64,000 nucleotides of DNA from a virus. The translations under genes and the position numbers were made by a program. Of the stretch, positions 9,856-48,400 are shown piece by piece. Positions within the stretch are counted from its first letter, which is position 1; each line of letters opens with the position of its first letter. Location: IMG/VR virus record IMGVR_UViG_3300042455_000638; one strand, 5' to 3'. The notes below the pieces were generated by a model that saw only the letters and a list, made by a program, of their open reading frames with translations, was not told where the DNA came from and made no database searches.

Positions 9856-10058
9856 TATATTACACGCCATTTCCAGTATATTGGAGGTGGCTGGACGGTA
9901 ACCCGCTACGTCAGTCCCGTTAAAACCTAGGATTGCCAGTGTTTTCCGCTCTTTCCTGCCATCCGGGGCAATGCCAGGGAAGTTAAGCCCAAATTCAGAC
10001 CGGGGCATCCTGGTCCTTACAGGGTCCTCTAGGCTATTTGGTAACCCAGCCACCTTTT

Positions 10059-10316
10059 TCACGTTTTTCCAAATCCTTACAAGTGACCCTTGGTAAAAGT
10101 TTTGCGTACCGGTACCCCCAGCACAGCCGTATATCCGCTTCACGTTTTTCCAAATCCTTACAAGTGACCCTTGGTAGAAGTTTTGTCCAACCTACGTCTC
10201 ACCCGGTAAAAGTTTTGCGTACCGGTACCTCCAGACTGGCTGCCTGCCGCCACGTCCTGTGACTGCCTGTTGAAGGTGAGACCTTGTTGGGGTTTTGCAT
10301 ACCGGCTCCACACGTC
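10059..10316 (+). repeat. Iteron-like direct repeats, candidate origin or regulatory locus
   Basis: 46-bp unit TTCACGTTTTTCCAAATCCTTACAAGTGACCCTTGGTA(A/G)AAGTTTTG at 10067 and 10139 (period 72 bp). Sub-repeat AAGTTTTGCGTACCGGTACC at 10098, 10208 and a degenerate copy at 10296. Contains palindrome GTACCGGTAC. Confidence 0.55.
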
Positions 10317-29313: not shown

Positions 29314-29628
29314 ATGAAATCATCAGAACTTGTACGGCAGTATGACATCGGTGAGAACTCACCGCCACACACGGTATGGCTCGGAGACACTGTCTGGTGG
29401 TTCGCCCAGAACGAAACCAGTGGTGTCCCCGCACCGGCCACGGTCTTAGCGTTCTGCGAAGACAACATGGTTAACCTGTCGTACCTGTCTGTCGTTGGTA
29501 CGGGCAAGCAGGTTGTGATCACAGGCGTATGTCTCGTCGGAGATGAACGTCTGGGGAACAACAACTACCGCAAGAACGGGTCGTGGCTTCCACGAACAGC
29601 ATTCGGCGTGTTACCGATTAAGGATTGA
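29314..29628 (+). CDS. Hypothetical protein (104 aa)
   Basis: Track ORF between terminase and portal. Confidence 0.45.
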   Translation: MKSSELVRQYDIGENSPPHTVWLGDTVWWFAQNETSGVPAPATVLAFCEDNMVNLSYLSVVGTGKQVVITGVCLVGDERLGNNNYRKNGSWLPRTAFGVLPIKD

Positions 29629-34064: not shown

Positions 34065-34586
34065 ATGGCAGCTCCAGAGTGGAACATCCTGAACCGTACA
34101 AAGCTCGTCCTGAAAGGTATGGCTGCCAACCGGCAGTTCGTGGCCAGTCAGGGTGAGGTTGTACGGACTATCAATCCGGGAACCATCCAGGTCTGGAAAG
34201 CGGTTGAACAAGGTAGAGGGGAGAACGGTCTCCAGAACATTGCCCTCCCAGCCATACGCATAACATCGCTCCCGGTAGAGTCTACCATAGGTGCCGGACT
34301 GAACTGTGCGGACGATGAGGTCGTACGTATCGCCATTCAGATTCTTGACATGTCAAACTACGAAACGTCGGGTCCACTTCGAACGTACATGGACTGGATG
34401 GACGCCATCCGAACCCAGCTTCTCGCAATACCCAATCCGTTCTTGCAGGACGCTGACGTAGAAGTGTACGATCCCTACGTCGTACACATCATCAAACGGT
34501 TGTCTGCGGAAGCCCAGAGTCTTATCAGACACGACCAACAGGTTGCGTTGTTTACATTCCAAGTTATGGTGAGGCACCACAGATGA
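34065..34586 (+). CDS. Hypothetical structural protein (173 aa)
   Basis: Track ORF. TAATG overlap. Confidence 0.45.
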   Translation: MAAPEWNILNRTKLVLKGMAANRQFVASQGEVVRTINPGTIQVWKAVEQGRGENGLQNIALPAIRITSLPVESTIGAGLNCADDEVVRIAIQILDMSNYETSGPLRTYMDWMDAIRTQLLAIPNPFLQDADVEVYDPYVVHIIKRLSAEAQSLIRHDQQVALFTFQVMVRHHR

Positions 34587-35449
34587 CAATCTCAGTTCCT
34601 GTTAACGCCCGTATGATGGTCAACGGGAAGAAGTTCTGCTTCGCCAAGTTCCTGAATCAGTCTTCAGTTGAACGTGTGCAGAACCCTGACGCCAACTGCG
34701 GTAACCGAGACCCGCTCCTGCAGCGGACAGCTTCCGGTCGACGCAAGTTCGCGTTCACGACGTACCACGATATCACGTACCCGATCTTGGTGGAGTTACT
34801 GCCGTTGGCGGGACTGACCAACGTATCGGGTACGTACACTGCGAACCAAGCCGACCCAACGACGATTAACATCGACGTCGACGCGGTCGGGGCGATCCAC
34901 AGCTTCACCGGATGCCGGGTCAATCGGTTCATCCTGCGGGGTCAGACGGGTACCCTTCCGATCTCTCTGGAGATCCAATGGGTCGCCACAAACGAAACCC
35001 AAGGCACCCCAACGTGGGTAGACGGTACCGTCGACAACATCTTTGCGTTCCCGGGTGCAACGTACACCATCAACGCAACGGCAGTTGACTTCGACAGGTT
35101 TGCTTTTGTCATTGACAACAAGCTCATCCCATCGTGGAACTCGTCTGTCACAGTGACAGACGTTGGCAACGGTCCTCGCCAGACTTTGCTCGCCACAAGC
35201 ATCCCATACACGTCAGCTACCAAAGCCCTGTACTGGACTAACCGAGACGCAGTCAACTCTGGAGACGACCACGTACTGGTTCTCAACAACGGTACCGATA
35301 CGGTGACGATCACGTTCCCTAATGCGGTGTTCATTCCGGAAGGTGTATCCATCGAAGGCTCGCTTGAAGAGATTCGACTGCCCATGACTTGGGAAGCCCA
35401 CCGCACATCCGCTGTCGCAGCCTTCAATGTTGTACTGACTAACGCATGA
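34583..35449 (+). CDS. Hypothetical T/N-rich beta-type structural protein (288 aa)
   Basis: Track ORF. ATGA coupling. Confidence 0.45.
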   Translation: MTISVPVNARMMVNGKKFCFAKFLNQSSVERVQNPDANCGNRDPLLQRTASGRRKFAFTTYHDITYPILVELLPLAGLTNVSGTYTANQADPTTINIDVDAVGAIHSFTGCRVNRFILRGQTGTLPISLEIQWVATNETQGTPTWVDGTVDNIFAFPGATYTINATAVDFDRFAFVIDNKLIPSWNSSVTVTDVGNGPRQTLLATSIPYTSATKALYWTNRDAVNSGDDHVLVLNNGTDTVTITFPNAVFIPEGVSIEGSLEEIRLPMTWEAHRTSAVAAFNVVLTNA

Positions 35450-36135
35450 TACCAGCATACCTTGATGACGGGTTCACACAGGAAGCAGCACCGGGCGTCT
35501 TCTGCCGCCCGATGTTGTGGCCCGAGAAACGTGACTGGAAACAGTACGCCACAGAGAATCCCGGTAAGGCGTGGGACAGGCTTGCCCAGAGCCATGTCTA
35601 TGGCGACCTGTCCGAAGCGGAGAACCACAAAAATGAAGTGGTCAATGTTATTCTTGGGTACACGTCGAAAGACGAGTCCCGGGACTTTCAGGACCTCAGC
35701 GATAGCATCCAGCTCCACACTACCAACCCCGGTCTCAGTGTGATGTCCTGTTCAACGTGCCGGAAGTACTGCGTGAACCATGACGACGGTTCCCTGTACA
35801 TCGGACCGAGCGGGGAGCCTACTCTACTCCCGTTCGGCATGAAGGTGCCGTGTGAGACTCAGAGCGGGTGCCTCAAGGGCCACTGGTCAGAACCTAACGG
35901 ACTGTCGAACGGACGTTGGTCGAAGACGTGGCGGCACTACTGGAGGTACAGGTACGACTGCCCAATGCAGGACGAGCTGTGGAACCGCAACAGAATGCTG
36001 ATTGAATGGGTGGTGCTGTATGGACGAGATAAGCGATTTGATCCGTTTGTTGGCCGAGGCTCCGATGGAGGAGCCGCCGATGTCCCGGCCGAAGGATCTG
36101 TTGGAAAGGATATCCCTGGAGCGAGTTGTATCTGA
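35446..36135 (+). CDS. Hypothetical structural protein (229 aa; 3' end overlaps the next gene)
   Basis: Track ORF. The last about 40 codons are G/D/A-rich and overlap a better-looking frame. Confidence 0.4.
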   Translation: MIPAYLDDGFTQEAAPGVFCRPMLWPEKRDWKQYATENPGKAWDRLAQSHVYGDLSEAENHKNEVVNVILGYTSKDESRDFQDLSDSIQLHTTNPGLSVMSCSTCRKYCVNHDDGSLYIGPSGEPTLLPFGMKVPCETQSGCLKGHWSEPNGLSNGRWSKTWRHYWRYRYDCPMQDELWNRNRMLIEWVVLYGRDKRFDPFVGRGSDGGAADVPAEGSVGKDIPGASCI

Positions 36136-36724
36136 GGGGGTACAGCACGTCGGCCAAGTAGCTCCGGACGCCGTACCCGCCCAACAGCAGACACAGGTCG
36201 GTGGGTTGGCAAACCCTAAGACGGGCGTGCCCGACATACCACTTCAGGTAGACGTAGCTCAACTGGAAGAGATACCGGGAAGACCGGCAACCCCGAACAA
36301 GTCCGAGGTCGTAGCCGGACGATCGGTAACACCAAAGCCCCAGCAACCGATGAAGGTCGGGGAGGCAAGGGTGTTTTCACCAGAGACTATGGCCGGTCGG
36401 GTTGCTACCCCGAAGATACTCGATACAATCGCTGGCCTACCTGCGGCACTGCGGGAGAAACAGACGTCGACCGGGCAGGCACAGGTAACGCCGAGAGCAC
36501 AGGTAACTGTAACTGTTCCACCGAACTTCCCACTGAACCCCAAAGACATCTTCACAGTCGTAGACGACCTGATACAATTACCCCCCAGACAGGACGTATC
36601 TGGTGCCCGAGACTTGCGGGTATCCAAAGCAAGTAGTGACCTTGAGTCGACAGAAGCATACGTCGCCAGGTCTTTCATGGACAATGAAGGCAACACGTCA
36701 GACTTCGAGCGGTGGCACTTATGA
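36020..36724 (+). CDS. Hypothetical Pro-rich structural protein
   Basis: Track ORF 36002..36724, with the second ATG at 36020 after GGGTGGTG. Confidence 0.4.
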   Translation: MDEISDLIRLLAEAPMEEPPMSRPKDLLERISLERVVSEGVQHVGQVAPDAVPAQQQTQVGGLANPKTGVPDIPLQVDVAQLEEIPGRPATPNKSEVVAGRSVTPKPQQPMKVGEARVFSPETMAGRVATPKILDTIAGLPAALREKQTSTGQAQVTPRAQVTVTVPPNFPLNPKDIFTVVDDLIQLPPRQDVSGARDLRVSKASSDLESTEAYVARSFMDNEGNTSDFERWHL

Positions 36725-37488
36725 TCTTCACGTACGGCAGCTACTCACATGACCCAGACGAGGTGATGGTACGCACCTCGATACAGTGGATTGTCGACAA
36801 GTTCAACAGACGCATGGGCGAGATCATTGAGTACACAATCGTCGGGGTCAAGAAGGTCGCTGATGACCCGGACCCGGAGATCACCAAGCAGAACCTGACC
36901 GATGCCCTGTTCGACCTGACCGAGGCGTACAACGTCGACTACCAGGACTTCGGCATGTACCACGACGATGGTGTTACACCAACGCGACACATCGTCTTCA
37001 ACGAAGAAACATTCGGCGGCACGAAGGTCGTCGTCCCACCGTCGTTCATCAACGGACCGTGGGGTGGTCGGGTAGAGTACACCAACACCCGAACTTTCTT
37101 TCTCGTGCTGCGAGCCGAGATACGGGTCGGTGACGGGCTATATGCACTGAAGCAGAAGCTGACGGTAAAGGGTACTGGCGGACCGAAGTGGAGATACTCT
37201 CCCAAGATGGTTGGCTCACCAGACGCTCAGATCCTGCAGACCGCCACATCGTTCTGGTACATTCAGGAGGGCGAGGCTATCGGCCGGTCAACATTCCCAG
37301 TACCTGCGGATGTCCTGTACCCGTCGATCGAGCACGGAGAGATGCGTACCGTCGAGTACACAGACGCCCAGGACATTGTTGTCGGCGGAGCTGAGATGTA
37401 CGGTACCGCCTGGTCGTACGCTATGGAGGCAACAGTAGCTCAAGGGTTCAGTGCGTTCGTTGTGCCTACCGTGGAGGCACTGGCATGA
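36721..37488 (+). CDS. Hypothetical structural protein (255 aa)
   Basis: ATGA coupling. Confidence 0.45.
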   Translation: MIFTYGSYSHDPDEVMVRTSIQWIVDKFNRRMGEIIEYTIVGVKKVADDPDPEITKQNLTDALFDLTEAYNVDYQDFGMYHDDGVTPTRHIVFNEETFGGTKVVVPPSFINGPWGGRVEYTNTRTFFLVLRAEIRVGDGLYALKQKLTVKGTGGPKWRYSPKMVGSPDAQILQTATSFWYIQEGEAIGRSTFPVPADVLYPSIEHGEMRTVEYTDAQDIVVGGAEMYGTAWSYAMEATVAQGFSAFVVPTVEALA

Positions 37489-39125
37489 CGTGGTCATTCA
37501 CTGGAGTGGTTGATCCGGTTCAAGCTGAGTACAACCAGGGCTTAGGCTTCAGCCCAGACGTGGCTGTACTCCGGTTCAACCCGCAAGTCACTGCGTTGCC
37601 AACATCAGGCACCTTGACACTTACATGGGACGTGACAACGATTACGTTACCGAACTGTGTTGTCGATCTCGGATCAATGCGGTACACTGACGATGGGTTC
37701 TACATGATGCTCAAGGTCCTCGACCGACGTGAGCGGTGGACCCGAGCAGCACCGATATCAGGCGAGTACAACACGATACGAGTGGGTACAAAGGCCCGGG
37801 CAAGGACATTACGCCAACTTGCCACGCTTCTGTTCACCGCTCTCGGGGAGGCTACGGCTAACGTATCAGCCCTACCAACAGATATCTATCCTCCCGTTTC
37901 GTGGCGATGCGACGACGTGGTTGAGGTATTGGAAGCACTCTTGACTGAGTATGGATACTCGGTCGCCCTTGGGTTTGGCTCTGAGTCTGTCACTGTGGTG
38001 AAGCTCGGCACCGGGGCGACCCTTTCTACGACGGACATGTTCGTAGGGTCGGCTACGATTGATCCGAAACTTGCTCCCCGCTACATGCGTAACTGCTTCG
38101 GGGACTCGGTAGCTCAGGTACGGTTGAAGATGGAAGCCGTTGGGCTGGACACCGATGGGTCCTGGAAACTGATTGACAGTCTGTCATTCAAACCAGCGGC
38201 TGGCTGGGAACGAGTAGCCCCCTACAGCCTGAATGAGGCCACGGTCGCCCTCACTGCAGACCAGAAGGTCGAGGCGGCAGCATACGTCCGGTCGGCTTAC
38301 CGAGTGAAAGGTTTTGCCGACGGTACTTGGGACGTACCCGACGGGTCTGAGACGCTGACATCCCTCGATCAGATCCTACCGATCGAAGGCAGGCTCCTCA
38401 GCACAGAAGACTTCCGACCAGACGAGACGTACGAGAATCTCCGGGTGTACGGTAAGTACTTCCAGATGCCGGACGAGAAGGCCCAGCCGTTCGTTGGGGG
38501 GAACACTGTCATCGGAGACAAAGTTACCGGTCGACGGTACAGGTTCGACGGTGAGAACGGGATGCTGTTCTTCGAGGAACCGATCTACTACATGGACGGA
38601 TCGGACATCAAGCCAGCAGACTTGTGGATCGAAGTAACCATCCGCATCCGGAACTCAACCAACGGATCGTGGCGGCACTACGAATACGACGTCGACGCGG
38701 AGCCTACAGGCACTGGGTACTACACGATTCGACACGAAGACCGAGCCGAGACAATCGTGTCGTACGATACAAGCCACGGCATAACGGCGTTCAGCACGAA
38801 CGCTGCGTCACTCATCGCGTTAGGCGTGGCCGCAGCTTCCGCAGCAGCGGGCATGTTCGCCACGTCGGCAAGTCAGTACATCGCGTACAACCAGCCAAAG
38901 CTGATGTTACGGTGTGACGGAGCGATCCAGCAGGTTAAACACATCATGACTTGCGGCGAGCACGAGCACGCTGTAAACCGTACGACAGCTTCGAGGAACT
39001 TCGAGTTCGACAAGAAGGTACCGTCGAGAGCACAGAGGGTGGCTCATCTTCGGGCCATGAAATCAGCGGTGCATATCCAGCGGAGTAAGGTGTACGAGAC
39101 GAAACTGAGGGACGGTAATGATTGA
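37485..39125 (+). CDS. Hypothetical large structural protein (546 aa)
   Basis: Track ORF. ATGA coupling. Confidence 0.5.
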   Translation: MTWSFTGVVDPVQAEYNQGLGFSPDVAVLRFNPQVTALPTSGTLTLTWDVTTITLPNCVVDLGSMRYTDDGFYMMLKVLDRRERWTRAAPISGEYNTIRVGTKARARTLRQLATLLFTALGEATANVSALPTDIYPPVSWRCDDVVEVLEALLTEYGYSVALGFGSESVTVVKLGTGATLSTTDMFVGSATIDPKLAPRYMRNCFGDSVAQVRLKMEAVGLDTDGSWKLIDSLSFKPAAGWERVAPYSLNEATVALTADQKVEAAAYVRSAYRVKGFADGTWDVPDGSETLTSLDQILPIEGRLLSTEDFRPDETYENLRVYGKYFQMPDEKAQPFVGGNTVIGDKVTGRRYRFDGENGMLFFEEPIYYMDGSDIKPADLWIEVTIRIRNSTNGSWRHYEYDVDAEPTGTGYYTIRHEDRAETIVSYDTSHGITAFSTNAASLIALGVAAASAAAGMFATSASQYIAYNQPKLMLRCDGAIQQVKHIMTCGEHEHAVNRTTASRNFEFDKKVPSRAQRVAHLRAMKSAVHIQRSKVYETKLRDGND

Positions 39126-39810
39126 CAGAAGCCAAGTTAACAACAGGTCCCAAGTTGACCTGTCGGCAGTCATTCCGTGGATAAACGACGCAGGAGCTGA
39201 GATACCCGCGTACGGAGTTATCCAACTTCGGACGAACTACGACACTACCAGTCACGCCCTAAAGCCAGACGGCACTACGGGGCTGTTCTTCGTCAACGGC
39301 CCGGTACCCGTTGCCAGCACAAAGCGTGGCGAGTCCCTCGTGTGGAATCGCCCGAGAACTGTTCTGCTCGATGGGTCTTCCGTCGGCCGGGAAGTGGGAC
39401 CTGTAGAAGCCTCTTGGCAGATGACGTCAGAAGGCACCGGGTTCCGCGTACTGAAACAGGCGGTTGCGGGAGTCGGCGTTGTCGTCCAAGTTGGGGGTGG
39501 AGGGACTGGCGGGGGCGGTCACCGGATCTGGTTTGACATCACCTCCGTAACATGCAATGAGGACCTCACGAAAACCCTTACTGTTAATGTTACCCACTTC
39601 ACTGGCGGCTGCGACGAACCGATTCCCGGAGAAGATGAGTACGGGAACATAATTGTTGAAGACATTTGTGGAATCCTGAACTACTATACCGAGATTTGGC
39701 TTGAATCCGGAGGGATCAAGGGGAGTGCCACGTACGTCTATCCGAGGAGCGGGTACTGTGAGCCTAAGTGGATTGTCGATAATGTCTGTGGTCAGCCGGA
39801 GTGTGCGTAA
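39118..39810 (+). CDS. Hypothetical Gly-rich structural protein (230 aa)
   Basis: Track ORF. Confidence 0.45.
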   Translation: MIDRSQVNNRSQVDLSAVIPWINDAGAEIPAYGVIQLRTNYDTTSHALKPDGTTGLFFVNGPVPVASTKRGESLVWNRPRTVLLDGSSVGREVGPVEASWQMTSEGTGFRVLKQAVAGVGVVVQVGGGGTGGGGHRIWFDITSVTCNEDLTKTLTVNVTHFTGGCDEPIPGEDEYGNIIVEDICGILNYYTEIWLESGGIKGSATYVYPRSGYCEPKWIVDNVCGQPECA

Positions 39811-41738
39811 TGGGACCTGAGTACTGGAAACCCGGCGTACCAACAGCGTTGAAGAAGTGCAGCGAGCGGGTATCAAACTCCTGCACCGATGAGACGGACG
39901 GGTGCTGTGCAGTCATCGCGTGTAGCTACTGTCTTGAGTGGAACCCCGATTACGGTCAGACCAAGAAAGGTTTTGCCACGTTCTTTGGCACGTACTGGTC
40001 CGGGTCCGTGGCAGGTGCAACGTGGATAGGTAGATGGGAGCGAGAGATCCTCCCGGATGTAACTCCCCCGCTCAGTGCTAACTCAGCAGGCATGTCGTTC
40101 GCCCCAATCGCTGGCGGTACGTACATGATGGGGAGTCCCGGGTCCGAGACAGGTAGACTGTCCAACGAGGATCAAGTCTCCAAGACGGTTGAGGCTTTTA
40201 ATATCGGAACGACAGAGGTCACGCAGGCCCAGTACTTGGCAGTACGCGGGCTAAGCCCGAGTCATTTCGCCGGGTCAGGTCGTCCGGTGGAGATGGTATC
40301 CTACTCCGACGCATTGGCGTTTTGCTCGACCCTGTCGGCCCGCCCATCGGAAATAGCGATGGGTAGAACGTACCGGCTACCAACCGAAGCTGAGTGGGAG
40401 TGGGCGTGCCGGGCAGGTACAACCACAGCGTACTCCTTCGGGGCAAACCCTGTGGACCTGCCGACGTACGGATGGTTCGAGGATAACAGTGGGGCAGAGA
40501 CCCATGACGTTTCGTTGAAGTCCCCCAACACCTCCAACCTATACGACATGCACGGTAACGTATGGGAGTGGGCACAGAACGACCAGTTGGACGCGGTCGA
40601 GGGGGAGCAGGTTATACGTGGAGGGGGTTGGGACTCTACCGCAGCCCAGTGCCGGTCAGCAAGTCGACAGACGGTGGCGGAGACAACGAAAGCAAACAAC
40701 ATAGGCTTTCGCGTTGTCATGATGCAGGCACCAATCCCCCAGTTAGGTGACTGCGAGTTCGTTGTCACGTTTGACGAAGACGAGGTCTACCGCAAGTCAT
40801 GCGAGTACGGCCAATCGTGCCGAGACTCCAGTGACTCTGCGGTAGCCACGATCGGGTACTACGATACCGGCGTGATCAGTTGGACGAAGTACGAGCCCAG
40901 ACCGCTGCACTACCGAGACGACGACTACAGCTACTGCAAGGTACACTACTGCGATGACTGTGAATGCACATGCGAGGAGCTATGCGTCGACGTACGGGAA
41001 GTGTTGACGTATGGGTACAGCGACTTCATCGACACGTATGAAGGTACGTTGGCAAACACCGCGTACCCTTGTGACCCTCCAGTGTGGGAAGGGACTGTTG
41101 GTAGCTTTGATTTGTCTCTTGCTCTGGGACATGACGAGTACGGGGCCTGTGTAATCACCCCAACAGTTAATGGGTATGATCAACCCGCCATTCCCGCTCC
41201 TGGGTGTGCGGACATGGAGGCTACCCTTGTCCTGGAAGACGGCAGTGAGATAACGGTCCGCTGCAAGAAGTGTGACTGCCCAGATGGAATTGGCGACTGT
41301 ATCTGTGGTCGACCGATGGGGCCTATCCTACGTGTCGTTTGGTCGTCGGGCAACGGAACTCATGGCAGTGCGTCAAGGACGTTTGACTTGACGTATGGCA
41401 TGGTCGACGAGCCAACGATATCATGTTCCCCTTGGTCACCTAACCCGTTCCCCGGCTACCGAGGCAGCGTGTCCGGGACGTTCCCAATCCCAATGGGTGG
41501 CACACGAGCAGACACGCTGGAGGTAATTTTGGTTTGCGAATGTACTGGTTGCCAGTATTGTATATATTACCGATGGGTAAACGATGATGCTTATCCTACC
41601 TGGCAAGTGGTTCCTTACACCATTCTCACTTGTGACTGCCCCGCCGTCTTAGACGTGATCGGCGGTTTCACTGAAGGTAACGTATGGGGGTATCAGGTCA
41701 GTGATGTCATGATCTATGAGTTGGAGGACAACTGCTGA
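39801..41738 (+). CDS. FGE-sulfatase (SUMF1/EgtB-like) domain protein with Cys-rich C-terminal half
   Basis: GNVWEW, VIRGGGWDS...CRSASR, MGSPGSE and TEAEWEWACRAG match conserved FGE-sulfatase blocks at about aa 100-310. The C-terminal 300 aa carry many Cys pairs. Confidence 0.5.
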   Translation: MCVMGPEYWKPGVPTALKKCSERVSNSCTDETDGCCAVIACSYCLEWNPDYGQTKKGFATFFGTYWSGSVAGATWIGRWEREILPDVTPPLSANSAGMSFAPIAGGTYMMGSPGSETGRLSNEDQVSKTVEAFNIGTTEVTQAQYLAVRGLSPSHFAGSGRPVEMVSYSDALAFCSTLSARPSEIAMGRTYRLPTEAEWEWACRAGTTTAYSFGANPVDLPTYGWFEDNSGAETHDVSLKSPNTSNLYDMHGNVWEWAQNDQLDAVEGEQVIRGGGWDSTAAQCRSASRQTVAETTKANNIGFRVVMMQAPIPQLGDCEFVVTFDEDEVYRKSCEYGQSCRDSSDSAVATIGYYDTGVISWTKYEPRPLHYRDDDYSYCKVHYCDDCECTCEELCVDVREVLTYGYSDFIDTYEGTLANTAYPCDPPVWEGTVGSFDLSLALGHDEYGACVITPTVNGYDQPAIPAPGCADMEATLVLEDGSEITVRCKKCDCPDGIGDCICGRPMGPILRVVWSSGNGTHGSASRTFDLTYGMVDEPTISCSPWSPNPFPGYRGSVSGTFPIPMGGTRADTLEVILVCECTGCQYCIYYRWVNDDAYPTWQVVPYTILTCDCPAVLDVIGGFTEGNVWGYQVSDVMIYELEDNC

Positions 41739-41893
41739 TGAGAAGGTTACTGATTGTTTTGCTGCTACCGGTCGTAGCACAGTTCGGTATTCATTACTTC
41801 CGGGTTTTCGCTGAGGCTGTGGGCGAAGCATCGGTGGACCACTGGGAGGAAGACCTCAACGCCCAGGTAGAGAAGGAATTCCCCCGTGGATAA
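41738..41893 (+). CDS. Unannotated 51-aa ORF with N-terminal signal-peptide/TM-like segment
   Basis: ATG overlaps the upstream stop (TGATG). Translation MRRLLIVLLLPVVAQFGIHYFRVFAEAVGEASVDHWEEDLNAQVEKEFPRG. Below the track cutoff. Confidence 0.3.
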   Translation: MRRLLIVLLLPVVAQFGIHYFRVFAEAVGEASVDHWEEDLNAQVEKEFPRG

Positions 41894-43076
41894 GTGTCAA
41901 TGCGAGGCATCCGGGTTTTGCACAGTACGAAACCTCGCGATGAAGCCAACGCTTCAGATGATCTGTAAGGTCAACAAGAACCGCGTCGACCGGTTGCTTG
42001 ACCCTACGGTCGAGAAGACTCCCCCCGACAAACCAACTCGCCAAGCAAGACCTGCAGTCCTCCCGAAGGAACCGGTGGGGGACTGCCTGGAAGCACGCAT
42101 CGAAGGTTTGATCAAAGTCAAGTCCTCAAAGGGGTGCGGCTGCAGTACTCTGAAGTCAAAAATGAATAGCTGGGGGGTCAGAGGTTGTGAACGGAACCGA
42201 CCCGAGATCGTATCGGCTCTTGTGGCCAACAGAGACGTTCTCATGTCTGCAGTGGCTGACGGGTCGTTTATCTTCAAGACGGTACTCAAGAATACCCCTG
42301 ACGACGTGCTGGCTGTGGGGGCCAACTGGTTGTTGGATGGTGCTATCGACGACGCCAAGGCTCAGAAGAACCCAGGATCTCGCAGTCCGCAGAAGCTCTC
42401 AGGGTATTGTTCGGCAGTTACGTCGATGAACCCGAACCCAGCACGAGCCGAACGTCAACTCCTGTGTCTACGATCCTGGCTACAGATCGGTCTCAACGTG
42501 GTCGTCGTGAACACTACGGAAGAACTCGACGGCATGGATCTCCCAGCAGGAGTTACTACGGCACCATGCGATGACATGACGACGATATACGACCGCAAGA
42601 CGCAGTTCGTGTCGTCACTGATACAAGCCGGGATAGACACCGGCCACCAGTTCATGCTGATCAACTCGGACATCGAGATTGATGGAAACGCCAGCCTGAT
42701 AGACAGGGCGATGGATCACTCGGACTCCCTGACGATCGGTATCCGGCACAACTATTACGCAGGCCGAAGAGTCCAGGCTGTTCGAGAACCATCCGGGTTG
42801 GACGTCTTCCTGATGACTCCTGAACTGGCAAGGACTGTCCCCGACGCACCATTCGGGATCGGAAAGCCAGCTTGGGATTACTGGCTCCCGCTACATTTCA
42901 AGTTGGCCAACACCCCGTTCCACTGGATAAAGTCCCCACTATTCTACCACGAGAAGCACCCGTTGGGGTGGAGCCGCAGCGAGTGGGAACTGGGCCGGGA
43001 CTTCCTGATCGAATACTACGGAGTTGAGTTGGGATACGGGTCCGGCGAATTCCGTGCCAGTCTTGATACACACTGA
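41886..43076 (+). CDS. Glycosyltransferase-like protein with Cys-rich N-terminus
   Basis: Central segment QLLCLRSWLQIGLNVVVVN...LINSDIEIDGN is reminiscent of the GT-A fold (cL.S. start, acidic DxD-like motif). Weak, by eye only. Confidence 0.3.
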   Translation: MDKCQCEASGFCTVRNLAMKPTLQMICKVNKNRVDRLLDPTVEKTPPDKPTRQARPAVLPKEPVGDCLEARIEGLIKVKSSKGCGCSTLKSKMNSWGVRGCERNRPEIVSALVANRDVLMSAVADGSFIFKTVLKNTPDDVLAVGANWLLDGAIDDAKAQKNPGSRSPQKLSGYCSAVTSMNPNPARAERQLLCLRSWLQIGLNVVVVNTTEELDGMDLPAGVTTAPCDDMTTIYDRKTQFVSSLIQAGIDTGHQFMLINSDIEIDGNASLIDRAMDHSDSLTIGIRHNYYAGRRVQAVREPSGLDVFLMTPELARTVPDAPFGIGKPAWDYWLPLHFKLANTPFHWIKSPLFYHEKHPLGWSRSEWELGRDFLIEYYGVELGYGSGEFRASLDTH

Positions 43077-43239
43077 AAGCATAGTTACGGTCGGGTGTCC
43101 GGTGGATAAATAGCTGGACCCCACAACGTGGCCTGGGAAGGCCCTGCCCCGATCGGGGCAGGGTCGCCATGTTTCCACTAGACAGCCCTTGTCAAGCCCG
43201 ATACAATCCCGGCTCAACATTTTCCTGACGGAGAGAATC

Positions 43240-45432
43240 ATGGCAGACATATTTCGGAAGCGACGTACCTTGACCCCCCGGTCAACAGCACCAACGGCAC
43301 CGGCCCGGCCAGCCATGCACAAGGCTATGAGGTACTACCCGGGGCACCCTGACTACGTGCCACCTCCACCACCCACCTTCCAGCAGCAGTGGCGGATAGA
43401 TCACGGCCAGGACCCCAACACCTTAGACTTCATCAAGGGCGTGGACGACCTTGATGAAAACGGTAACCCGTACCCCGAAGGGTACAACGGGATGCAGTAC
43501 GCCGCCAACCAGCCACAGGCACAGTCGTTTAACCCTCAGAACCAGGATGTACTAGACCGGGCAGCAGCCGCGTTGGACGCTATCAGGCAGGACCGTACCA
43601 ACCCGATGTACGGTGGTCAGCAGAGTTACGCGGCTCCCGGGGCTAACGGTCAACCTATCGGCGGAACGTCTCCAATACCTGGCCTCATCGGTCGAGGTTT
43701 GGGGGCGATGAGTGACGGGCTTAACTTCGCTCAGGACAACATCGAGCAGTACCACCGAGACCGTCCGGGTGTTCCGCAGGTGCCTCCTGCTCAACGGGCG
43801 GGGTTCGCAGCTCCCGGCCAGAATGCAGCAATCCAGGGGTCCCCCGGTCTACGCGGGTTCATCAACAGCGTCGGACAGGGGTTGAACGGGTTGGTTACCA
43901 GCATCGGCGGTAGCCTGTCTCAGATGCTGCAACCGAGCGGGGGTCCTAGACGTCAGCCGATGTACGGTGGAGCCCAGGGGTACGCGGCCCCGGGTGCCAA
44001 CAACCCACTGTACACGTACGACGGGCCGAACACGCCCAGCACTGGCAACCCGATGCGACCGATACCCGGCGGCGACCCCCATATCGCTGCTCTGCAAGCC
44101 GAGATTGATCGGGGCAACCGGCAGGAGGACATCATGCTTGAGCCGGGAGCTACTTCGTCTGGTGGGGCTACGAAGAACTTCCGGAAGATCCAGCCGGAGG
44201 ACCTTAACGGGGTAACTGCCCCAACAGTGGCTGGGTACAACGGCAACGTAGGGTATGTTGCTGATCCGAACCGAGCCTCTGCTGAGAGAAACATCGCCTC
44301 TTCTCAGGCGAACGCCCAGCGACTCGCTGAAGGGGGTGCTGCAGCCGATCCGACTAACGGTCGTGGCAGGTTCGGAGGGGCGTATGGAGCCGGGCTGGAC
44401 GCGGATGCTACCGCCCTCGCAGAAGGCCGGGCTGTACGTACAGCCGACGGTAAGGTCGTGTACTTCACTGGTACGCAGGAGTCTGCTCGCCAAGCACAGA
44501 CAGCAGGCAAGGCCGAACGTGAAGCGTTGCGAGACCGTAACAACCTGAACGTACCTGAGGCTGAGCTGAAACGCCGTGCTGCTGCCGACGCACAAGCCGC
44601 AGCACGGGCCGCCAAGCACCAAGCCTTTAAGGACGCCAACGGTGGTATGAGCTACAAGCAATACGACCGGATGACAGGTAGCAGCAATGGCAATAACGCT
44701 TTGACGATGAAGGCCGTCCGAGAGGGCAGGCTGAGCCCAATGGAAGCTAACTACCGGATGCAGCTACGGGCTGAAAAAGCTCTACGCCGATCGGGTAACC
44801 CGATAACGGGCGGCACCTCTATGGCCGGAAGTTTGTACCCGAACATGATGCCCCCGCAGAGTAGCAAAGCCCCGGCCCCAGAGAACCCGATGTCTGCAGC
44901 GACTGATAGGTTTCGGCCGGGTGGGGTCGTGACACCGCAAAGTAGTCAAGCCGCACGAGACACGTTGAAGGTGATGGCCGAAGGCGGAAAGACACCGGAC
45001 GGTGCCGCCATACCACCGGACCCAATGTTTGCTGCGGGTCTTGCCGAATCCCCGGACAACATCCAAGGCGTCCACTTTGGAATCCAGCAGATGGTTCAGG
45101 ACGGGAAGGACCTTGGCGATAACGAACTCCAGAGCCTTCACGCTGCTGCCGTAGCTATGCAGGCTGGCCACGGTACGTCAAGCTACGACCCGTTCGACAT
45201 GACGTACGGGTTTGAAGGGCTATCCGGGGCGGACGCGGCACACACTGAAACATTCGGTCCGATGTACAAAGAACTTGCAGGTATGGCAACACCGACCCCA
45301 CAGCAGTTGAGGAGTTGGTGGGCGAAGTTCAAAGGACACATTCGACCGGACACCAGCATGTGGTCGAGCGTTGGTGAGGACGCCCCATCAATCGGGGGAA
45401 CTGAGTTTCCTAGAAACCCAATGAAGCCATAA
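43240..45432 (+). CDS. Gly/Pro/Gln-rich low-complexity virion protein (internal or ejection protein candidate)
   Basis: Track ORF trimmed to ATG 43240 (GGAGAG RBS). Repeated YGG.QGYAAPGAN blocks. Confidence 0.45.
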   Translation: MADIFRKRRTLTPRSTAPTAPARPAMHKAMRYYPGHPDYVPPPPPTFQQQWRIDHGQDPNTLDFIKGVDDLDENGNPYPEGYNGMQYAANQPQAQSFNPQNQDVLDRAAAALDAIRQDRTNPMYGGQQSYAAPGANGQPIGGTSPIPGLIGRGLGAMSDGLNFAQDNIEQYHRDRPGVPQVPPAQRAGFAAPGQNAAIQGSPGLRGFINSVGQGLNGLVTSIGGSLSQMLQPSGGPRRQPMYGGAQGYAAPGANNPLYTYDGPNTPSTGNPMRPIPGGDPHIAALQAEIDRGNRQEDIMLEPGATSSGGATKNFRKIQPEDLNGVTAPTVAGYNGNVGYVADPNRASAERNIASSQANAQRLAEGGAAADPTNGRGRFGGAYGAGLDADATALAEGRAVRTADGKVVYFTGTQESARQAQTAGKAEREALRDRNNLNVPEAELKRRAAADAQAAARAAKHQAFKDANGGMSYKQYDRMTGSSNGNNALTMKAVREGRLSPMEANYRMQLRAEKALRRSGNPITGGTSMAGSLYPNMMPPQSSKAPAPENPMSAATDRFRPGGVVTPQSSQAARDTLKVMAEGGKTPDGAAIPPDPMFAAGLAESPDNIQGVHFGIQQMVQDGKDLGDNELQSLHAAAVAMQAGHGTSSYDPFDMTYGFEGLSGADAAHTETFGPMYKELAGMATPTPQQLRSWWAKFKGHIRPDTSMWSSVGEDAPSIGGTEFPRNPMKP

Positions 45433-45433
45433 T

Positions 45434-48400
45434 ATGCCTACCATCTCCCAGCTCCTCAACGCTGTACCGCAGAACCAGCTCCAGCCTCAGCAAACTCAGC
45501 AGCCACAGTCCGAAGACATAGGACTGATGGATACGTTGAGTGCGGTGGGTGGGGCTAGTCTCGGGGCCGTCGCGTCCGTAGGTAACTTCCTCGACCTACC
45601 GGGCTCGTCGATCCGAGACATCCTCGCCGGGCAGAACCCGTTCGACCAGTGGATGTCCCCTCTTACGGACAAGAACCGCACATCGGGCAGACAACTGCTT
45701 GAGAAGTACGGCATGAGAGCCAACCGTGAGACTGGCATGTCCGGTTGGTTGTCAGACCCCGGTGAAGGTCTACGCGACCTCGCTGGTTTCGCCACTGAGG
45801 TACTGCTTGACCCATTCGGCCCGTTGACCAAGGGCACGAAGATGGCTACCGGTGCGGCCAGCCTGGTTGACCGGGCTCACCCCCTTGTGAAAGGTTTGGC
45901 CAACGGAGCTGTCAACGTCTTCGACAAGCTGCCGGGTAAGATCGGGCAGGTCACGAAGGACCGGGTTACTGGTTGGGCTAAGAACGCCAACCGTGGTGTC
46001 AAGGCATTGTTCAACGCACCGAGCGGTGGCGTCACCGATGTGTACGCTCAAGGTATCAAAGAACGGGCTACCGTCACAGCAGACGCGGCCCGGGAATTGG
46101 CCAACACGATGAGCATTGACATCGTTGAGACCGCCAACCGGAGCGGGTTCAACCTGAACCGGAACAACGATCTTGACATGACCGATCCGGCTAACTGGTT
46201 GGCCGATGATTCACCCCTCGTGACACGGGCTCGGGAAGATCAACTCACCCGGTTCTGGGAAGGCACGTACGACCCGGCCAATGCTGGTATGAAGCAGGGA
46301 GACCTCGTCACCCCGGCGGGTTCAGACGGGTTTAAGGAGGTTGAGTGGATCGACCGGTCGTCCACTGGCACGAAGGTCAAGCTGGTCAACGACGATACCA
46401 TCTACAACGACTTCGACTTTGATCCAAAGAAGCAGTGGCTGAGTCAGGGTGTGGAGATCCCACAAGAAGTCCAGGACGTCATGCTGCAGATGAAGGGGTT
46501 CCGCGATACGCTGAAGGATGAGGTACATGAACTCGGTGGTAACATCGGGGACCTGATGGACCCGTACATCGACTTCACTCACCGTCGTAAAGGTGTTGAC
46601 CTCGCCCGAGCTGAACAGATCGGCGGACTGGCCCATCACTCCTGGGTGAGAAACAAGTACGCCAGTCTTGCGTCGACGTTGCAGGCAACTGGTGGTCGTG
46701 AGATGCTGTACAAGGCATTTAAGGATGGTACGACTGGAGTCACGGACTTGTACCGTGACAACAAGTGGCAGAACCTCGTACGTAGCATCAACGATCTGGC
46801 TACTGGAGTTGGTGCCGACGATGGCCCCAACTACATACCGAACTACGTTGGTATGCGGCACATCCAGGAGTTCGCTGAGGCCCTTGGTAAGACTCCGGAG
46901 GACGTCTTCAAAGAGATGCAGCAGATGCGTCCAGTCAACGCGACAGACACCCGAGCGTACAGCACACAGCCGGGGGTATACACGGTTGCTAGAGATGGAG
47001 CTGTTGTCGGAGAAATACGGGCTAACGTACTGGACGGCGTAGCCGACATCGACGCCAGTAGACTGTCGGACACGAGCCTACTTCCAGACGCCCTACACGA
47101 CGTGGCTCAGCATCTTGCCAAGACTGGTGCGGCCGGTAGGGTCCGGGTCAGTGCAGCTCAGGACATTGCCGACGCTCTCAAACCACACCGATATGTTCCG
47201 GACGGGTTGAACCCTGACGGCACCGAACGGTTGGTGCGAGACATCTTCAAGGCCGAGGATACGTACACGTCGTTCGACAAGTTCATGCCCAAGGACGAGT
47301 TCATTGCTCGGTTCAATGCGTACGTCGACCACCTTGCGTCTCAGGTCAAGCAGGGCGACATGCCGGGGGTACAACCCGGTCGCGGGTGGTGGAAGTCTTA
47401 CACGAGCTACACCCCGAACGCTGACGGTACGGAGCGGGTACTTAACCTCGACCCAGCGAACCTGACGTTCGTTGACAGCAACAACATCCTCGACCCAAAC
47501 ATCCGCAAGATGTTTACCTTCCGCAACGAGTACGATCAGGCTATCGCCCACGTTCAGGATGGCAAAGAACTCTACATCGGTATCAAGCAGGACAAGGGTA
47601 AGAAGGCCGAGCTGTTAATGCTCAAGCCGACTCAACGGCACCAGATCGAAATGCGGCACAAACAACTGCTTAGCAAACTCGATGATATGCTGGTCAAGAG
47701 CCCGCTACTCCAGGCTGAGGCTATCACTGACGCTGTGCATGGTGCCATCACTCGGAACTACTCGGACAAGGTAGACCGATGGATGCCAAAGATCGACAAG
47801 GTCGACGGTACAGATGTGGGTGAGATTACGGCGATGAATGCTGCCGGGGACTTCTCCCGCAAGGCAGGACTGAAGCAGTGGCACAAGACGTTCGAGGAAC
47901 TCAGCGAAGGGGTAGACTTTGTTAAACCCCAGTCCGCACAGGAAGCCCTGCTGCGGTTGGATGAGGACAGCCTGCAGGCGTTGATGTTTACACCAGCTCA
48001 GCGAACCCGACTCAACCAGATCCGGGGAGAGATCGCGGACAAGGCGGATGTGATCCAAGACGACGCGGCCCGTGAAGCTGCCAAGATTAACCAGGACATG
48101 TCAATCGAACTGGTAGACCGGCACCGAGGGCTGGCTGAGGATATCTCTCAGAACATCGAACGTCGGTTCAACAACATGTACGAGGGTTCGTCTGTATCCA
48201 GCAACTTGGAGTACTTACGGAAGAACACAGCGTTCAAGAGTTTGCTACAGTCACAGCGGGACTTCATCGGTAAGGCCGTAGTCGACGCACGTACGAACCC
48301 AGACGCTTTCGGCACACGTAGCCCCCGAGGTAATGTTGACGTCGAGTACGACCTCGCCAACAAACGTGGTATGACGTTTGAGCAGGCGATTGAGGACAAG

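What the first reader, a model, noticed from the sequence alone, without database searches (positions are those of the whole stretch)
39801..43076. FGE-sulfatase-domain protein, 51-aa signal-peptide ORF and glycosyltransferase-like gene embedded in the virion structural operon
The 645-aa protein has conserved FGE/SUMF1-type blocks (MGSPGSE, TEAEWEWACRAG, GNVWEW, RGGGWDS) and a Cys-pair-rich C-terminal half. It is ATGA-coupled to an unannotated 51-aa ORF with a hydrophobic N-terminus. That ORF overlaps the start of a 396-aa protein with a Cys-rich N-terminus and a GT-A-like core.

FGE-sulfatase folds are the usual scaffold of DGR variable proteins and of some receptor-binding proteins. I found no reverse transcriptase and no TR/VR repeat in the window, so a DGR is unsupported here. 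The trio may instead be a host-surface-modifying or receptor-binding module.
Basis: partly seen in the sequence, partly recalled or inferred. Interest (0 to 1): 0.6.

Follow-up and report, generated by a model that had tools for sequence, protein, structure and literature searches.

The report
Modular phage tail adhesin cassette
A cysteine-rich protein at the far end of an uncultured phage's tail genes has picked up a non-enzymatic, lectin-like "FGE" binding domain and travels with a tiny membrane protein and a sugar-transferase-like enzyme, which makes it a swappable host-recognition cassette rather than a hypermutation (DGR) system.

Summary

What is new: the FGE domain is an optional insert in a conserved ~405-aa Cys-rich scaffold. 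That scaffold family has 184 clusters, all metagenomic, with no Pfam, PHROG, PDB or BFVD match. Only 21 of 68 related loci carry the insert, always at the same inter-domain site. Other members carry a VWA adhesion domain at a second site.

A DGR is excluded for the whole ~66.9-kb genome: no RT and no TR, with a positive control detected 50/50.

The cassette sits at the distal end of three different tail-module types. A small hydrophobic ORF follows the scaffold gene in 38 of 55 loci, against 4 of 500 controls.

Best reading: a modular tail adhesin plus accessory maturation or modification factors. This is a new variant of a known kind, of moderate interest.

The parts
39499..39810 (+). C-terminal ~100 aa (aa 128-229, 6 Cys) of the upstream 230-aa protein (gene 39118-39810). 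This is the conserved partner domain lying immediately upstream of the scaffold gene.
   Evidence: tblastn finds this C-terminal part directly upstream of the scaffold gene in 68 of 68 related loci, while its N-terminal part is conserved only in close relatives. Its stop overlaps the next start as TAATG.
39810..40064 (+). Scaffold N domain (aa 1-85 of the 642-aa protein) with the CC-x4-C-x2-C motif.
   Evidence: Invariant Cys and Trp columns in alignments A1, A8 and A10. Present in all 68 loci. Duplicated together with C1 in P0218, P0225 and P0241.
40071..40745 (+). Inserted FGE-sulfatase / C-type-lectin-fold domain (aa ~88-312). It is non-catalytic and TvpA-like.
40746..41279 (+). Scaffold C1 domain (aa 313-490), all-beta and Cys-rich (C-x4-C-x2-C-x-C-x-C-x3-C and other motifs).
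   Evidence: Present in all 68 loci. AF2 model mean pLDDT 80.7, all-beta. No PDB or BFVD fold match above noise. VWA domains are inserted inside this domain in P0399, P0408, P0429, P0433 and P0441.
41280..41738 (+). Scaffold C2 domain (aa 491-642, ending in an invariant C-terminal Cys). This is the divergent, exchanged distal part.
   Evidence: Mean pairwise identity is 27% here, against 57-66% for the rest of the protein, among 30 FGE+ sequences. It is replaced by unrelated sequence in P0012, P0014, P0034, P0074 and many loci.
41738..41893 (+). 51-aa ORF with a hydrophobic N-terminal segment (residues ~3-21) and an acidic C-terminal tail (net charge -5 over the last 25 aa).
   Evidence: 50% identical to the 51-aa ORF at the same position in L001. 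The same family occurs in 9 non-redundant loci, and 8 further unrelated families of small hydrophobic ORFs occupy the same position. Rate is 38 of 55 loci against 4 of 500 control gene ends. Kyte-Doolittle 17-residue window maximum 2.07.
41886..42215 (+). N-terminal Cys module of the 396-aa protein (aa 1-~110), with two 4-Cys groups: C4, C6, C12, C27 and C67, C84, C86, C101.
   Evidence: tblastn shows only this part is conserved downstream of the scaffold in L001, L005, L007, L008, L020, L025-L037 and others, where it is fused to other enzymes. The GTG start gives an 8-nt overlap with the 51-aa ORF, as in L001 and L005. Not related to Erv1/ALR (hhalign probability 1.4%).
42396..43076 (+). GT-A-fold (nucleotide-diphospho-sugar-transferase-like) domain (aa ~171-396) with the conserved motifs NSDIE, GLD.F, GKP.WDYWLP and FHE.H.
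34583..35446 (+). Context: tail tube gene, which marks the tail module upstream of the cassette.
   Evidence: PF18906 Phage_tube_2, E 9.1e-11, 42.3 bits against a cut-off of 27.
37485..39125 (+). Context: 546-aa tail-module protein whose stop overlaps the start of the 230-aa gene. It is syntenic in L003 and L004.
   Evidence: tblastn gives 36% identity over the full length in L003 and L004, directly before the 230-aa homologue. No family or PDB match.
43189..45432 (+). Context: Gly/Pro/Gln/Ala-rich 747-aa protein following the cassette. It is a candidate substrate for the modification enzymes (inference only).
   Evidence: Translation. Internal 45-nt repeat at 43603/43957. A homologue follows the methyltransferase and 2OG oxygenase genes in L003.

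Best explanation
Gene 39810-41738 encodes a modular adhesin mounted at the distal end of the phage tail, and it is a probable host-recognition protein. It is built on a conserved, all-beta, cysteine-rich scaffold with three parts: N, C1 and C2.

The scaffold is coupled to different tail types through the conserved C-terminal domain of the protein encoded just upstream. Its C-terminal C2 domain is the fast-changing, exchangeable part.

In this phage an FGE-sulfatase (C-type-lectin-fold) domain has been spliced into the linker between N and C1. The domain is of the non-enzymatic TvpA, SUMF2 or PorK kind and lacks the catalytic cysteine pair. It therefore most likely acts as an additional, conserved ligand-binding (lectin-like) module and not as an enzyme. 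It is not diversified by a retroelement.

The translationally coupled 51-aa protein is a small membrane-inserted or exported partner. The 396-aa protein joins a Cys-containing docking or metal module to a GT-A transferase. Both are accessory factors co-expressed with the adhesin. They most likely mature or modify a virion component, for example by glycosylation, rather than being structural.

What is shown and what is inferred:
- Shown: the domain architecture, the insertion, the loss of the catalytic residues, the absence of a DGR, the synteny and the fold assignments.
- Inferred: tail location in the particle, ligand binding, and the target of the transferase.
For: - Insertion: ~400-aa homologues align with both flanks and are gapped exactly over the FGE block. 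Only 21 of 68 loci are FGE+, always at the same site. That site is a domain boundary, as the N+C1 tandem duplications show.
- A second adhesion fold: a VWA domain is inserted in the same scaffold family.
- Non-catalytic: a single Cys where FGE has Cys336 and Cys341. All enzyme-subfamily models fall far below their cut-offs.
- Tail-distal position: three genes after TMP_3 in L005. After the tail tube and TAC genes in L002. After the tail tube gene in the window and L003.
- RBP-like variability: the N-side is conserved and C2 diverges, at 27% identity against 57-66%.
- Mosaicism: the window's scaffold is closest to the FGE-less L022, while its FGE is closest to loci with distant scaffolds.
- Downstream neighbours are enriched in methyltransferases, P4H-type 2OG oxygenases, PRTase, GT2 and hexapeptide acyltransferase.
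- The operon is embedded, with no promoter or terminator enrichment.
Against: - No virion proteomics or microscopy exists, so particle location is inferred from gene order only.
- The scaffold has no structural or sequence relative of known function.
- The window's tail module is unusual: the 747-aa and 1623-aa proteins follow the cassette, and no tape measure is recognised.
- The FGE domain is the most conserved part of the protein (66%). That is atypical for a specificity determinant and would also fit a structural or catalytic role not yet recognised.
- The host is unknown: there are no prophage copies in 185,579 genomes.
- Disulfide versus metal coordination of the 31 scaffold cysteines is unresolved.
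Confidence: 0.6

Rival explanations
1. The FGE-domain protein is the variable protein of a diversity-generating retroelement (DGR), as in TvpA or Mtd. Its ligand-binding face would be hypermutated by a reverse transcriptase copying a template repeat.
For: The best sequence and structure relative is the DGR variable protein TvpA. FGE-sulfatase is the commonest DGR target scaffold, at 19% of DGRs (PMC5758913). Phage tail proteins are classic DGR targets.
Against: - No repeat of the gene occurs anywhere in the window or in the 2,936 bp of genome outside it.
- None occurs in 20 further FGE+ loci with up to 10-kb flanks. The method found a synthetic 79%-identical TR in 50 of 50 trials.
- No RVT family is found among the ORFs of at least 150 aa. 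No DGR-RT motif occurs in any frame, and no YxDD motif in the unseen segment.
- The domain is internal, whereas DGR FGE targets carry the VR at the C-terminus of the protein.
- The VR-equivalent segment is no more variable than the rest of the domain: 65% against 67%.
Confidence: 0.02
2. The FGE domain is an active enzyme, either formylglycine-generating or a related Cu/Fe oxidase of the EgtB, OvoA or PvdO type. It would modify cysteines of the adjacent Cys-rich scaffold or of a host protein.
Against: - The segment that carries Cys336 and Cys341 in human FGE (sequence verified against 2AII and 1Y1E) holds a single Cys here, with Ser at the Cys336 position.
- NCBIfam equivalogs score far below their cut-offs: GldK 67/350, PvdO 53/500, EgtB 38/360.
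- The DinB-like domain that EgtB and OvoA need is absent.
- The closest relatives (TvpA, SUMF2, PorK) are all non-enzymatic.
- I saw no CxPxR motif when reading the scaffold sequence.
- FGE-less scaffolds keep the same cysteines.
Confidence: 0.05
3. The 51-aa membrane protein and the GT-A enzyme form a host-envelope-modifying module that happens to lie next to the tail adhesin gene. It would act in seroconversion, superinfection exclusion or receptor masking, and would not act on the virion.
For: Phage GTs are known to modify host serotypes (PMC12619734). The small protein has a membrane-type hydrophobic segment. From my own knowledge, receptor-blocking or exclusion genes often sit beside RBP or tail genes (T5 llp, T1/phi80 cor, HK97 gp15). 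The window encodes a serine recombinase, so the phage may be temperate.
Against: - The genes overlap their neighbours on both sides and have no promoter or terminator of their own. They are therefore expressed with late structural genes and not from a prophage.
- The enzyme has no membrane segment.
- Its N-terminal Cys module co-varies with the Cys-rich scaffold across unrelated phage backbones.
- The neighbouring enzymes include P4H-type oxygenases and methyltransferases.
- No prophage copies were found.
Confidence: 0.15
4. The Cys-rich protein is not a receptor-binding adhesin. It would be a structural tail-tip or baseplate component whose cysteines bind metal (Zn or Fe-S, as in lambda gpL), and the inserted FGE or VWA domains would be decorative or stabilising.
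For: The dense CxC, CC and CxxC motifs resemble metal sites. The scaffold core is highly conserved, with an invariant C-terminal Cys. The FGE insert is conserved rather than variable. From my own knowledge, lambda gpL-type tail tip proteins bind an Fe-S cluster.
Against: - Both inserted domain types (CLec/FGE and VWA) are canonical ligand-binding modules.
- C2 shows RBP-like replacement.
- The gene is the last structural-type gene of the tail module in L001, L002 and L005.
Confidence: 0.18

Closest known systems
TvpA, the Treponema denticola DGR variable protein (PDB 2Y3C)
   Different: TvpA is a stand-alone lipoprotein with the VR at its C-terminus, diversified by an adjacent RT and TR. Here the domain is internal to a phage tail protein. 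It has no TR or RT anywhere in the genome, and its VR-equivalent segment is not hypervariable.
Mtd of Bordetella phage BPP-1 and TaqVP (C-type-lectin-fold DGR adhesins)
   Different: Mtd carries the CLec domain at its C-terminal tip and relies on DGR mutagenesis. Here the CLec/FGE domain is an optional, conserved internal insert, and variability lies in a different C-terminal domain (C2) that changes by replacement.
Non-catalytic FGE-sulfatase-domain proteins: SUMF2/pFGE, PorK/GldK, and kinase-linked sensor domains of Planctomycetota and Verrucomicrobiota
   Different: None of those is part of a virion module. Scores against the GldK and GldJ equivalog models are far below cut-off.
Virion glycosylation by phage-encoded glycosyltransferases in actinobacteriophages (Freeman et al. 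2023, cited in PMC12619734 and PMC13313380)
   Same: A GT, often with a methyltransferase, is encoded with the structural genes and presumed to decorate virion proteins. Here a GT-A-fold enzyme, with methyltransferases and oxygenases in relatives, is translationally coupled to a tail protein.
   Different: There is no sequence relation and no evidence yet that any virion protein here is glycosylated. The enzyme carries a unique Cys-rich N-terminal module and is paired with a small membrane protein. The glycans known in mycobacteriophages sit on capsid and tail-tube C-termini.
Small membrane proteins encoded in or beside tail genes (HK97 gp15 exclusion protein; T5 Llp and T1 Cor receptor blockers), cited from my own knowledge
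   Same: A very small membrane-targeted protein genetically linked to the tail or receptor-binding genes.
   Different: Those are morons or separately transcribed genes, and Llp and Cor are lipoproteins. The 51-aa ORF has no Cys and so no lipobox. It overlaps both neighbours and has no promoter or terminator of its own.

Membership tests
Catalytic formylglycine-generating enzyme (FGE/SUMF1) | PF03781 FGE-sulfatase fold | tested here: met
Catalytic formylglycine-generating enzyme (FGE/SUMF1) | Pair of catalytic, copper-binding cysteines (human Cys336 and Cys341) | tested here: not met
   The human segment was verified against 2AII and 1Y1E. The window segment VIRGGGWDSTAAQCRSASR has a single Cys, with Ser at the Cys336 position. 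A true FGE is only the 9th PDB hit, at E 4.7e-4.
Functionally defined FGE-fold subfamilies (GldK/PorK, GldJ, PvdO, EgtB, OvoA, SenA) | Score above the curated NCBIfam equivalog cut-off | tested here: not met
   GldK 67.5 against 350, PvdO 53.5 against 500, EgtB 37.6 against 360, SenA 32.8 against 420, OvoA 26.8 against 400.
DGR variable protein (TvpA or Mtd type) | C-type-lectin / FGE fold able to display a variable face | tested here: met
DGR variable protein (TvpA or Mtd type) | A template repeat (TR) ~100-150 bp long, imperfectly matching the variable region | tested here: not met
   No repeat at E<=1e-3 in the window, in the remaining 2.9 kb of the genome or in 20 other FGE+ loci. A synthetic TR was detected in 50 of 50 trials.
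DGR variable protein (TvpA or Mtd type) | A reverse transcriptase encoded nearby | tested here: not met
   No RVT family among 56 ORFs of at least 150 aa. No DGR-RT motif in six frames of the window or of 71 loci. No YxDD motif in the unseen segment, whose called genes are only the SNF2 helicase end and small ORFs of at most 125 aa.
DGR variable protein (TvpA or Mtd type) | VR at the C-terminus of the target protein and hypervariable between relatives | tested here: not met
   The domain is internal, with 330 aa following it. The VR-equivalent segment shows 65% mean identity against 67% for the rest of the domain. The C-terminal rule comes from PMC5758913.
Phage receptor-binding / distal tail protein | Gene at the distal end of the tail morphogenesis module | tested here: met
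   Third gene after the TMP_3 tape measure in L005. After the tail tube, TAC and following genes in L002. Downstream of the tail tube gene in the window and L003.
Phage receptor-binding / distal tail protein | Conserved tail-attachment side and variable or exchangeable distal side | tested here: met
   N and C1 at 57-59% identity against C2 at 27%. Alternative C-termini occur in many loci, along with optional FGE or VWA adhesion domains.
Phage receptor-binding / distal tail protein | Presence in the virion and binding to a host receptor | not testable with these tools
   Needs virion proteomics, cryo-EM and adsorption assays. The host is unknown.
GT-A glycosyltransferase (GT2-like) | GT-A (Rossmann-like nucleotide-sugar-binding) fold | tested here: met
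GT-A glycosyltransferase (GT2-like) | Match to a GT family sequence model (for example PF00535) | tested here: not met
   No Pfam, PHROG or NCBIfam hit. The PF00535 hits in relatives lie in separate fused domains: P0135 aa 8-104 against the homologous region aa 130-351.
GT-A glycosyltransferase (GT2-like) | DxD-type metal and nucleotide-sugar binding motif | tested here: inconclusive
Erv1/ALR sulfhydryl oxidase (considered for the N-terminal module of the 396-aa protein) | Erv-type helical bundle with a HN.VN..LGK signature | tested here: not met
   hhalign probability 1.4% between the window-type module and the Erv domains of P0167, P0178 and P0185. Those relatives do match viral Erv oxidase 3GWL at 1.2e-9.
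Moron-type superinfection-exclusion gene (considered for the 51-aa ORF) | Own promoter and terminator, allowing expression independent of late genes | tested here: not met
   Start and stop overlap both neighbours. Promoter- and terminator-like sites are not enriched over shuffles (5 against 7.0 and 14 against 13.6), and none is placed so as to give the ORF a transcription unit of its own.

The most novel reading that the evidence does not exclude
The cassette could be a dedicated phage system for making an extracellular-type, disulfide-rich and possibly glycosylated adhesin inside a bacterial cytoplasm.

In this reading the Cys-rich tail protein (31 conserved scaffold cysteines) is matured by factors co-translated with it:
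- a small membrane protein;
- enzymes addressed to it by a shared Cys-bearing N-terminal module. The enzymes seen are a GT-A transferase, PRTase, methyltransferases and P4H-type oxygenases.

In distant relatives the same GT-A domain is fused to an Erv-family sulfhydryl oxidase and lies directly after other Cys-rich proteins. That would be a bacteriophage counterpart of the cytoplasmic disulfide and glycosylation pathways so far known only from giant viruses and baculoviruses.
Probability: 0.15. Interest if true: 0.75.

Novelty: new variant of a known kind. Interest (0 to 1): 0.45.

Why it matters
- It shows how uncultured freshwater-type phages build host-recognition proteins. A conserved Cys-rich platform takes up unrelated adhesion domains (lectin-like FGE, VWA) at defined sites and swaps its distal domain. 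None of this needs the DGR machinery usually linked to FGE/CLec tail proteins.
- It separates 'FGE-sulfatase hit in a phage' from both 'sulfatase maturation enzyme' and 'DGR target'. That distinction is useful for annotation, since current calls name this protein a formylglycine-generating enzyme.
- The scaffold, its partner domain, the small membrane ORF and the Cys-tagged enzymes are all unannotated families. Their tight linkage gives concrete hypotheses about tail-protein maturation and modification.

Tried and rejected
- **DGR.** Rejected after a repeat search in the window, in 20 other FGE+ loci and in the 2.9-kb remainder of the genome. It was also rejected by RT searches and a positive control.
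- **Catalytic FGE.** Rejected on the missing Cys pair and the sub-threshold equivalog scores.
- **N-terminal module of the 396-aa protein as a divergent Erv1/ALR oxidase.** Rejected (hhalign probability 1.4%).
- **Direct GT2 membership.** The PF00535 hits in relatives turned out to be separate fused domains.
- **Related isolated phages or a host.** No megablast or tblastn match in 50,697 deposited phage genomes, for the DNA, the scaffold or the GT protein. No prophage in 185,579 species genomes. NCBI-sourced cluster members carry no organism names.
- **Flanking proteins.** PHROG, Pfam, NCBIfam and PDB sequence searches of the 230-, 258-, 546-, 747- and 1623-aa proteins gave nothing.
- **Moron-like promoter or terminator around the trio.** None above background.
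- **Model coordinates.** I could not retrieve them, so Cys-Cys geometry (disulfide versus metal site) was not examined.

Full report
**1. What is in the sequence**

The first ORF carries a strong FGE-sulfatase domain: PF03781, aa 102-306, E 1.2e-33. It also matches phrog_18508 at 3.4e-48. All quoted motifs are present. Homologues and public gene calls start at ATG 39810, which overlaps the stop of the upstream 230-aa gene as TAATG. The protein is therefore 642 aa, not 645. It has 34 cysteines: 6 in aa 1-85, 3 in the FGE block and 25 in aa 313-642.

The 51-aa ORF starts on the last base of the stop codon (TGATG). Its last 8 nt overlap the GTG start of the 396-aa gene.

The window is a tailed-phage genome. 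It encodes prim-pol/DUF3987, a serine recombinase, a large terminase, a portal at 29625-31811, a tail tube at 34583-35446 (PF18906, 9e-11) and PolA. The genes from 37485 to 43076 all have overlapping junctions. Promoter- and terminator-like sites are not enriched. So the trio really is embedded in the late structural operon.

**2. The FGE domain is an optional insert in a conserved Cys-rich scaffold**

A homologue search found full-length relatives and also ~400-aa proteins with no Pfam domain. In the alignment these shorter proteins match aa 1-85 and aa ~313-642 of the window protein. They are gapped exactly over the FGE block.

Across 68 related loci the pattern is consistent:
- All 68 have the scaffold N and C1 domains.
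- Only 21 have the FGE block, and it always begins ~264 nt into the gene.

The site is a true domain boundary, because three members carry a tandem duplication of the N+C1 unit. Five other members have a von Willebrand A domain (PF00092, up to 6.8e-14) inserted at a second site inside C1, with the scaffold resuming afterwards.

The scaffold family is small and uncharacterised:
- 219 clusters at 90% identity, all 'hypothetical'.
- 184 representatives among 1.84 billion proteins.
- No hit in 50,697 deposited phage genomes or in 185,579 bacterial and archaeal genomes.
- No fold match for the non-FGE part in the PDB or BFVD.

The AlphaFold model has mean pLDDT 80.7, and the scaffold part of it is all-beta.

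**3. What kind of FGE domain it is**

I recalled the human FGE active-site segment and verified it exactly against 2AII and 1Y1E. Aligned to it, the window segment VIRGGGWDSTAAQCRSASR has only one Cys, and Ser stands at the Cys336 position. The catalytic pair is therefore absent.

All NCBIfam enzyme and lipoprotein equivalogs score far below their cut-offs. The domain thus belongs to the non-enzymatic, ligand-binding branch of the fold.

**4. DGR test**

- No repeat of the gene exists in the window.
- No RVT family is found among 56 ORFs of at least 150 aa.
- No DGR-RT motif and no TR-like repeat occur in the window or in 20 other FGE+ loci.
- The repeat test recovered a synthetic 79%-identical template repeat in 50 of 50 trials.

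The source contig (71,981 bp, IMG 3300044732) matches both window ends at 100% identity. The gap between the ends is 2,936 bp, so the genome is about 66.9 kb and circularly permuted or terminally redundant. The unseen piece holds the end of an SNF2 helicase gene and small ORFs. It has no TR-like repeat (best E 0.46) and no YxDD motif.

Two further points argue against a DGR:
- The domain is internal, whereas FGE-type DGR targets have the VR at the C-terminus (PMC5758913).
- The VR-equivalent segment is no more variable than the rest of the domain, at 65% against 67% mean identity.

A DGR is excluded as far as sequence can show.

**5. Where the protein works**

The cassette lies at the distal end of at least three different tail-module types:
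- In L005 (Mu-gpT-type capsid) it is the third gene after a TMP_3 tape measure.
- In L002 (HK97-type capsid) it follows the tail tube, TAC and four more genes.
- In the window and in L003 it follows the tail tube gene and three to five further tail genes.

The C-terminal ~100 aa of the upstream protein (6 Cys) is conserved next to the scaffold in 68 of 68 loci, while its N-terminal part changes with the tail type. This pattern suggests an adaptor.

Among 30 FGE+ proteins the mean pairwise identities are:

| Region | Identity |
|---|---|
| N | 59% |
| FGE | 66% |
| C1 | 57% |
| C2 | 27% |

Many loci replace C2 altogether. This is the usual receptor-binding-protein pattern: a conserved attachment side and an exchangeable distal side.

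The family is mosaic. The FGE-less L022 is closest to the window in N (73%), C1 (68%), the upstream domain (80%) and the GT-A domain (69%). The window's FGE block, however, is 70-72% identical to those in loci whose scaffolds are only 41-51% identical.

**6. The 51-aa ORF**

It is 50% identical to a 51-aa ORF at the same position in the FGE-less L001.

A systematic scan found a 48-67-aa ORF with a hydrophobic N-terminus starting within -25 to +45 nt of the scaffold stop in 38 of 55 loci. The rate at other gene ends was 4 of 500. These ORFs fall into 9 sequence families. The loci are not all independent, but nine unrelated families at one position is strong evidence for a functional partner.

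The window protein has a basic N-terminus (MRR), a hydrophobic stretch over residues ~3-21 and an acidic tail with net charge -5. Whether it is a cleaved signal peptide or a membrane anchor cannot be decided here. It has no Cys, so it is not a lipoprotein.

**7. The 396-aa protein**

No HMM library recognises it. The AlphaFold model (pLDDT 87.5) shows an N-terminal Cys-bearing module, a helical region and a C-terminal alpha/beta domain.

Only the N-terminal ~95 aa (two 4-Cys groups) is conserved next to the scaffold. In L001 and L005 that module is fused to a PRTase domain, and elsewhere to other domains. In P0124 and in L009 and L023 the GT-A domain lies in front of the N-terminal module. PF00535 hits in relatives belong to separate fused GT2 domains.

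A census of 77 non-redundant ORFs downstream of the scaffold gene gave:
- SAM methyltransferases (about 16)
- P4H-type 2OG-Fe(II) oxygenases (5)
- PRTase (3)
- GT2 (2)
- DUF6171 (2)
- hexapeptide acyltransferase (1)

This repertoire is typical of glycan or protein-modification islands. It is reminiscent of phage virion glycosylation loci (Freeman et al. 2023, as cited in PMC12619734 and PMC13313380).

**8. A lead, not a result**

Three relatives of the GT-A domain (P0167, P0178, P0185) are fused to a genuine Erv-family sulfhydryl oxidase domain. The best PDB match is the FAD-linked sulfhydryl oxidase 3GWL at 1.2e-9, and CGC or CSC replaces CxxC.

Two of the three, the ones whose loci I fetched (L071 for P0167, L069 for P0185), lie directly after other Cys-rich proteins: 13 Cys in 255 aa and 23 Cys in 358 aa. 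The window's own N-terminal module is not Erv-like.

This recurring linkage of a Cys-rich protein with a redox or Cys module and a GT-A domain is the basis of the 'maturation cassette' reading. I rate it at about 15%.

**9. Verdict**

The gene is best read as a modular tail adhesin on a new Cys-rich scaffold that has acquired a non-catalytic, TvpA-like lectin domain without a DGR. It is accompanied by a small membrane protein and a Cys-tagged GT-A enzyme of uncertain target.

This is a new variant of a known kind, namely CLec-fold phage adhesins. It is moderately interesting and offers several testable leads.

Noticed in passing
L071:2079-3278, L069:8001-9029 (proteins P0167, P0185; also P0178): Phage-like contigs encode an Erv1/ALR-type sulfhydryl oxidase domain fused to the same GT-A-like domain as the window protein. 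The best PDB match is the FAD-linked sulfhydryl oxidase 3GWL (1.2e-9), and CGC or CSC stands in place of CxxC. The two genes whose loci were fetched (L071, L069) lie directly after unrelated Cys-rich proteins (13 Cys in 255 aa; 23 Cys in 358 aa). My literature search found Erv oxidases only in giant viruses and baculoviruses, not in bacteriophages.
   Followed up: partly
proteins P0399, P0408, P0429, P0433, P0441 (scaffold family; no window coordinates): Some members of the Cys-rich scaffold family carry a von Willebrand A domain with a MIDAS-like D-x-T/S-x-S motif. It is inserted inside C1, at a different site from the FGE insert.
   Followed up: yes
proteins P0218, P0225, P0241: These scaffold variants of ~670 aa carry a tandem duplication of the N+C1 unit. 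This shows the scaffold is built from repeatable sub-domains.
   Followed up: yes
window 665-739, 2737-2768, 3618-3706, 4601-4656, 5813-5905, 6435-6509, 8105-8153: A family of ~50-70-nt intergenic repeats occurs in the left, minus-strand arm. Each has a GC-rich perfect hairpin (for example GGGGGCCAC-CGCA-GTGGCCCCC) followed by a conserved TCACCGGGGTCAACTGTACTTA box. They are probably repeated early promoter, operator or terminator units.
   Followed up: no
window 10058-10234: Two nearly perfect short direct repeats lie in a non-coding stretch between divergent gene blocks: 47 nt at 98% identity spaced 81 nt apart, and 30 nt at 97% spaced 113 nt apart. This may be an origin or a regulatory region.
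   Followed up: no
window 54247-55164 (inside ORF 53885-56479, 864 aa): An internal 300-nt direct repeat at 80% identity, spaced 618 nt apart, indicates a duplicated domain in a large protein. That protein's C-terminus matches phrog_18251, of unknown function.
   Followed up: no
window 35446-36135 and 36002-36724: Two ORFs just after the tail tube gene overlap by ~130 nt in different frames. The arrangement resembles the frameshifted tail-assembly-chaperone pair of long-tailed phages. I did not look for a slippery site.
   Followed up: no
window 43189-45432 and 45434-50305: A Gly/Pro/Gln/Ala-rich 747-aa protein, with an internal PMYGG.QGYAAPGAN repeat at 43603 and 43957, and a 1623-aa protein follow the cassette. 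Neither has any family or PDB match, and no tape-measure gene is recognisable in the window. In L003 the homologue of the 747-aa protein follows a methyltransferase and a P4H-type 2OG oxygenase.
   Followed up: partly
window ends; L079:5269-8204: The window is 64,000 bp of a genome of about 66,936 bp. The 71,981-bp source contig (IMG 3300044732 Ga0453697_0000144) therefore carries ~5 kb of terminal redundancy, or the genome is circularly permuted. The exact 642-aa protein occurs on at least 16 contigs from several metagenomes.
   Followed up: yes
window 41886 versus 41940: Public gene callers disagree on the start of the GT-like gene: 396 aa from GTG, or 378 aa from ATG. Conservation of the N-terminal C-x-C-x5-C motif in homologues supports the longer GTG form.
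   Followed up: yes
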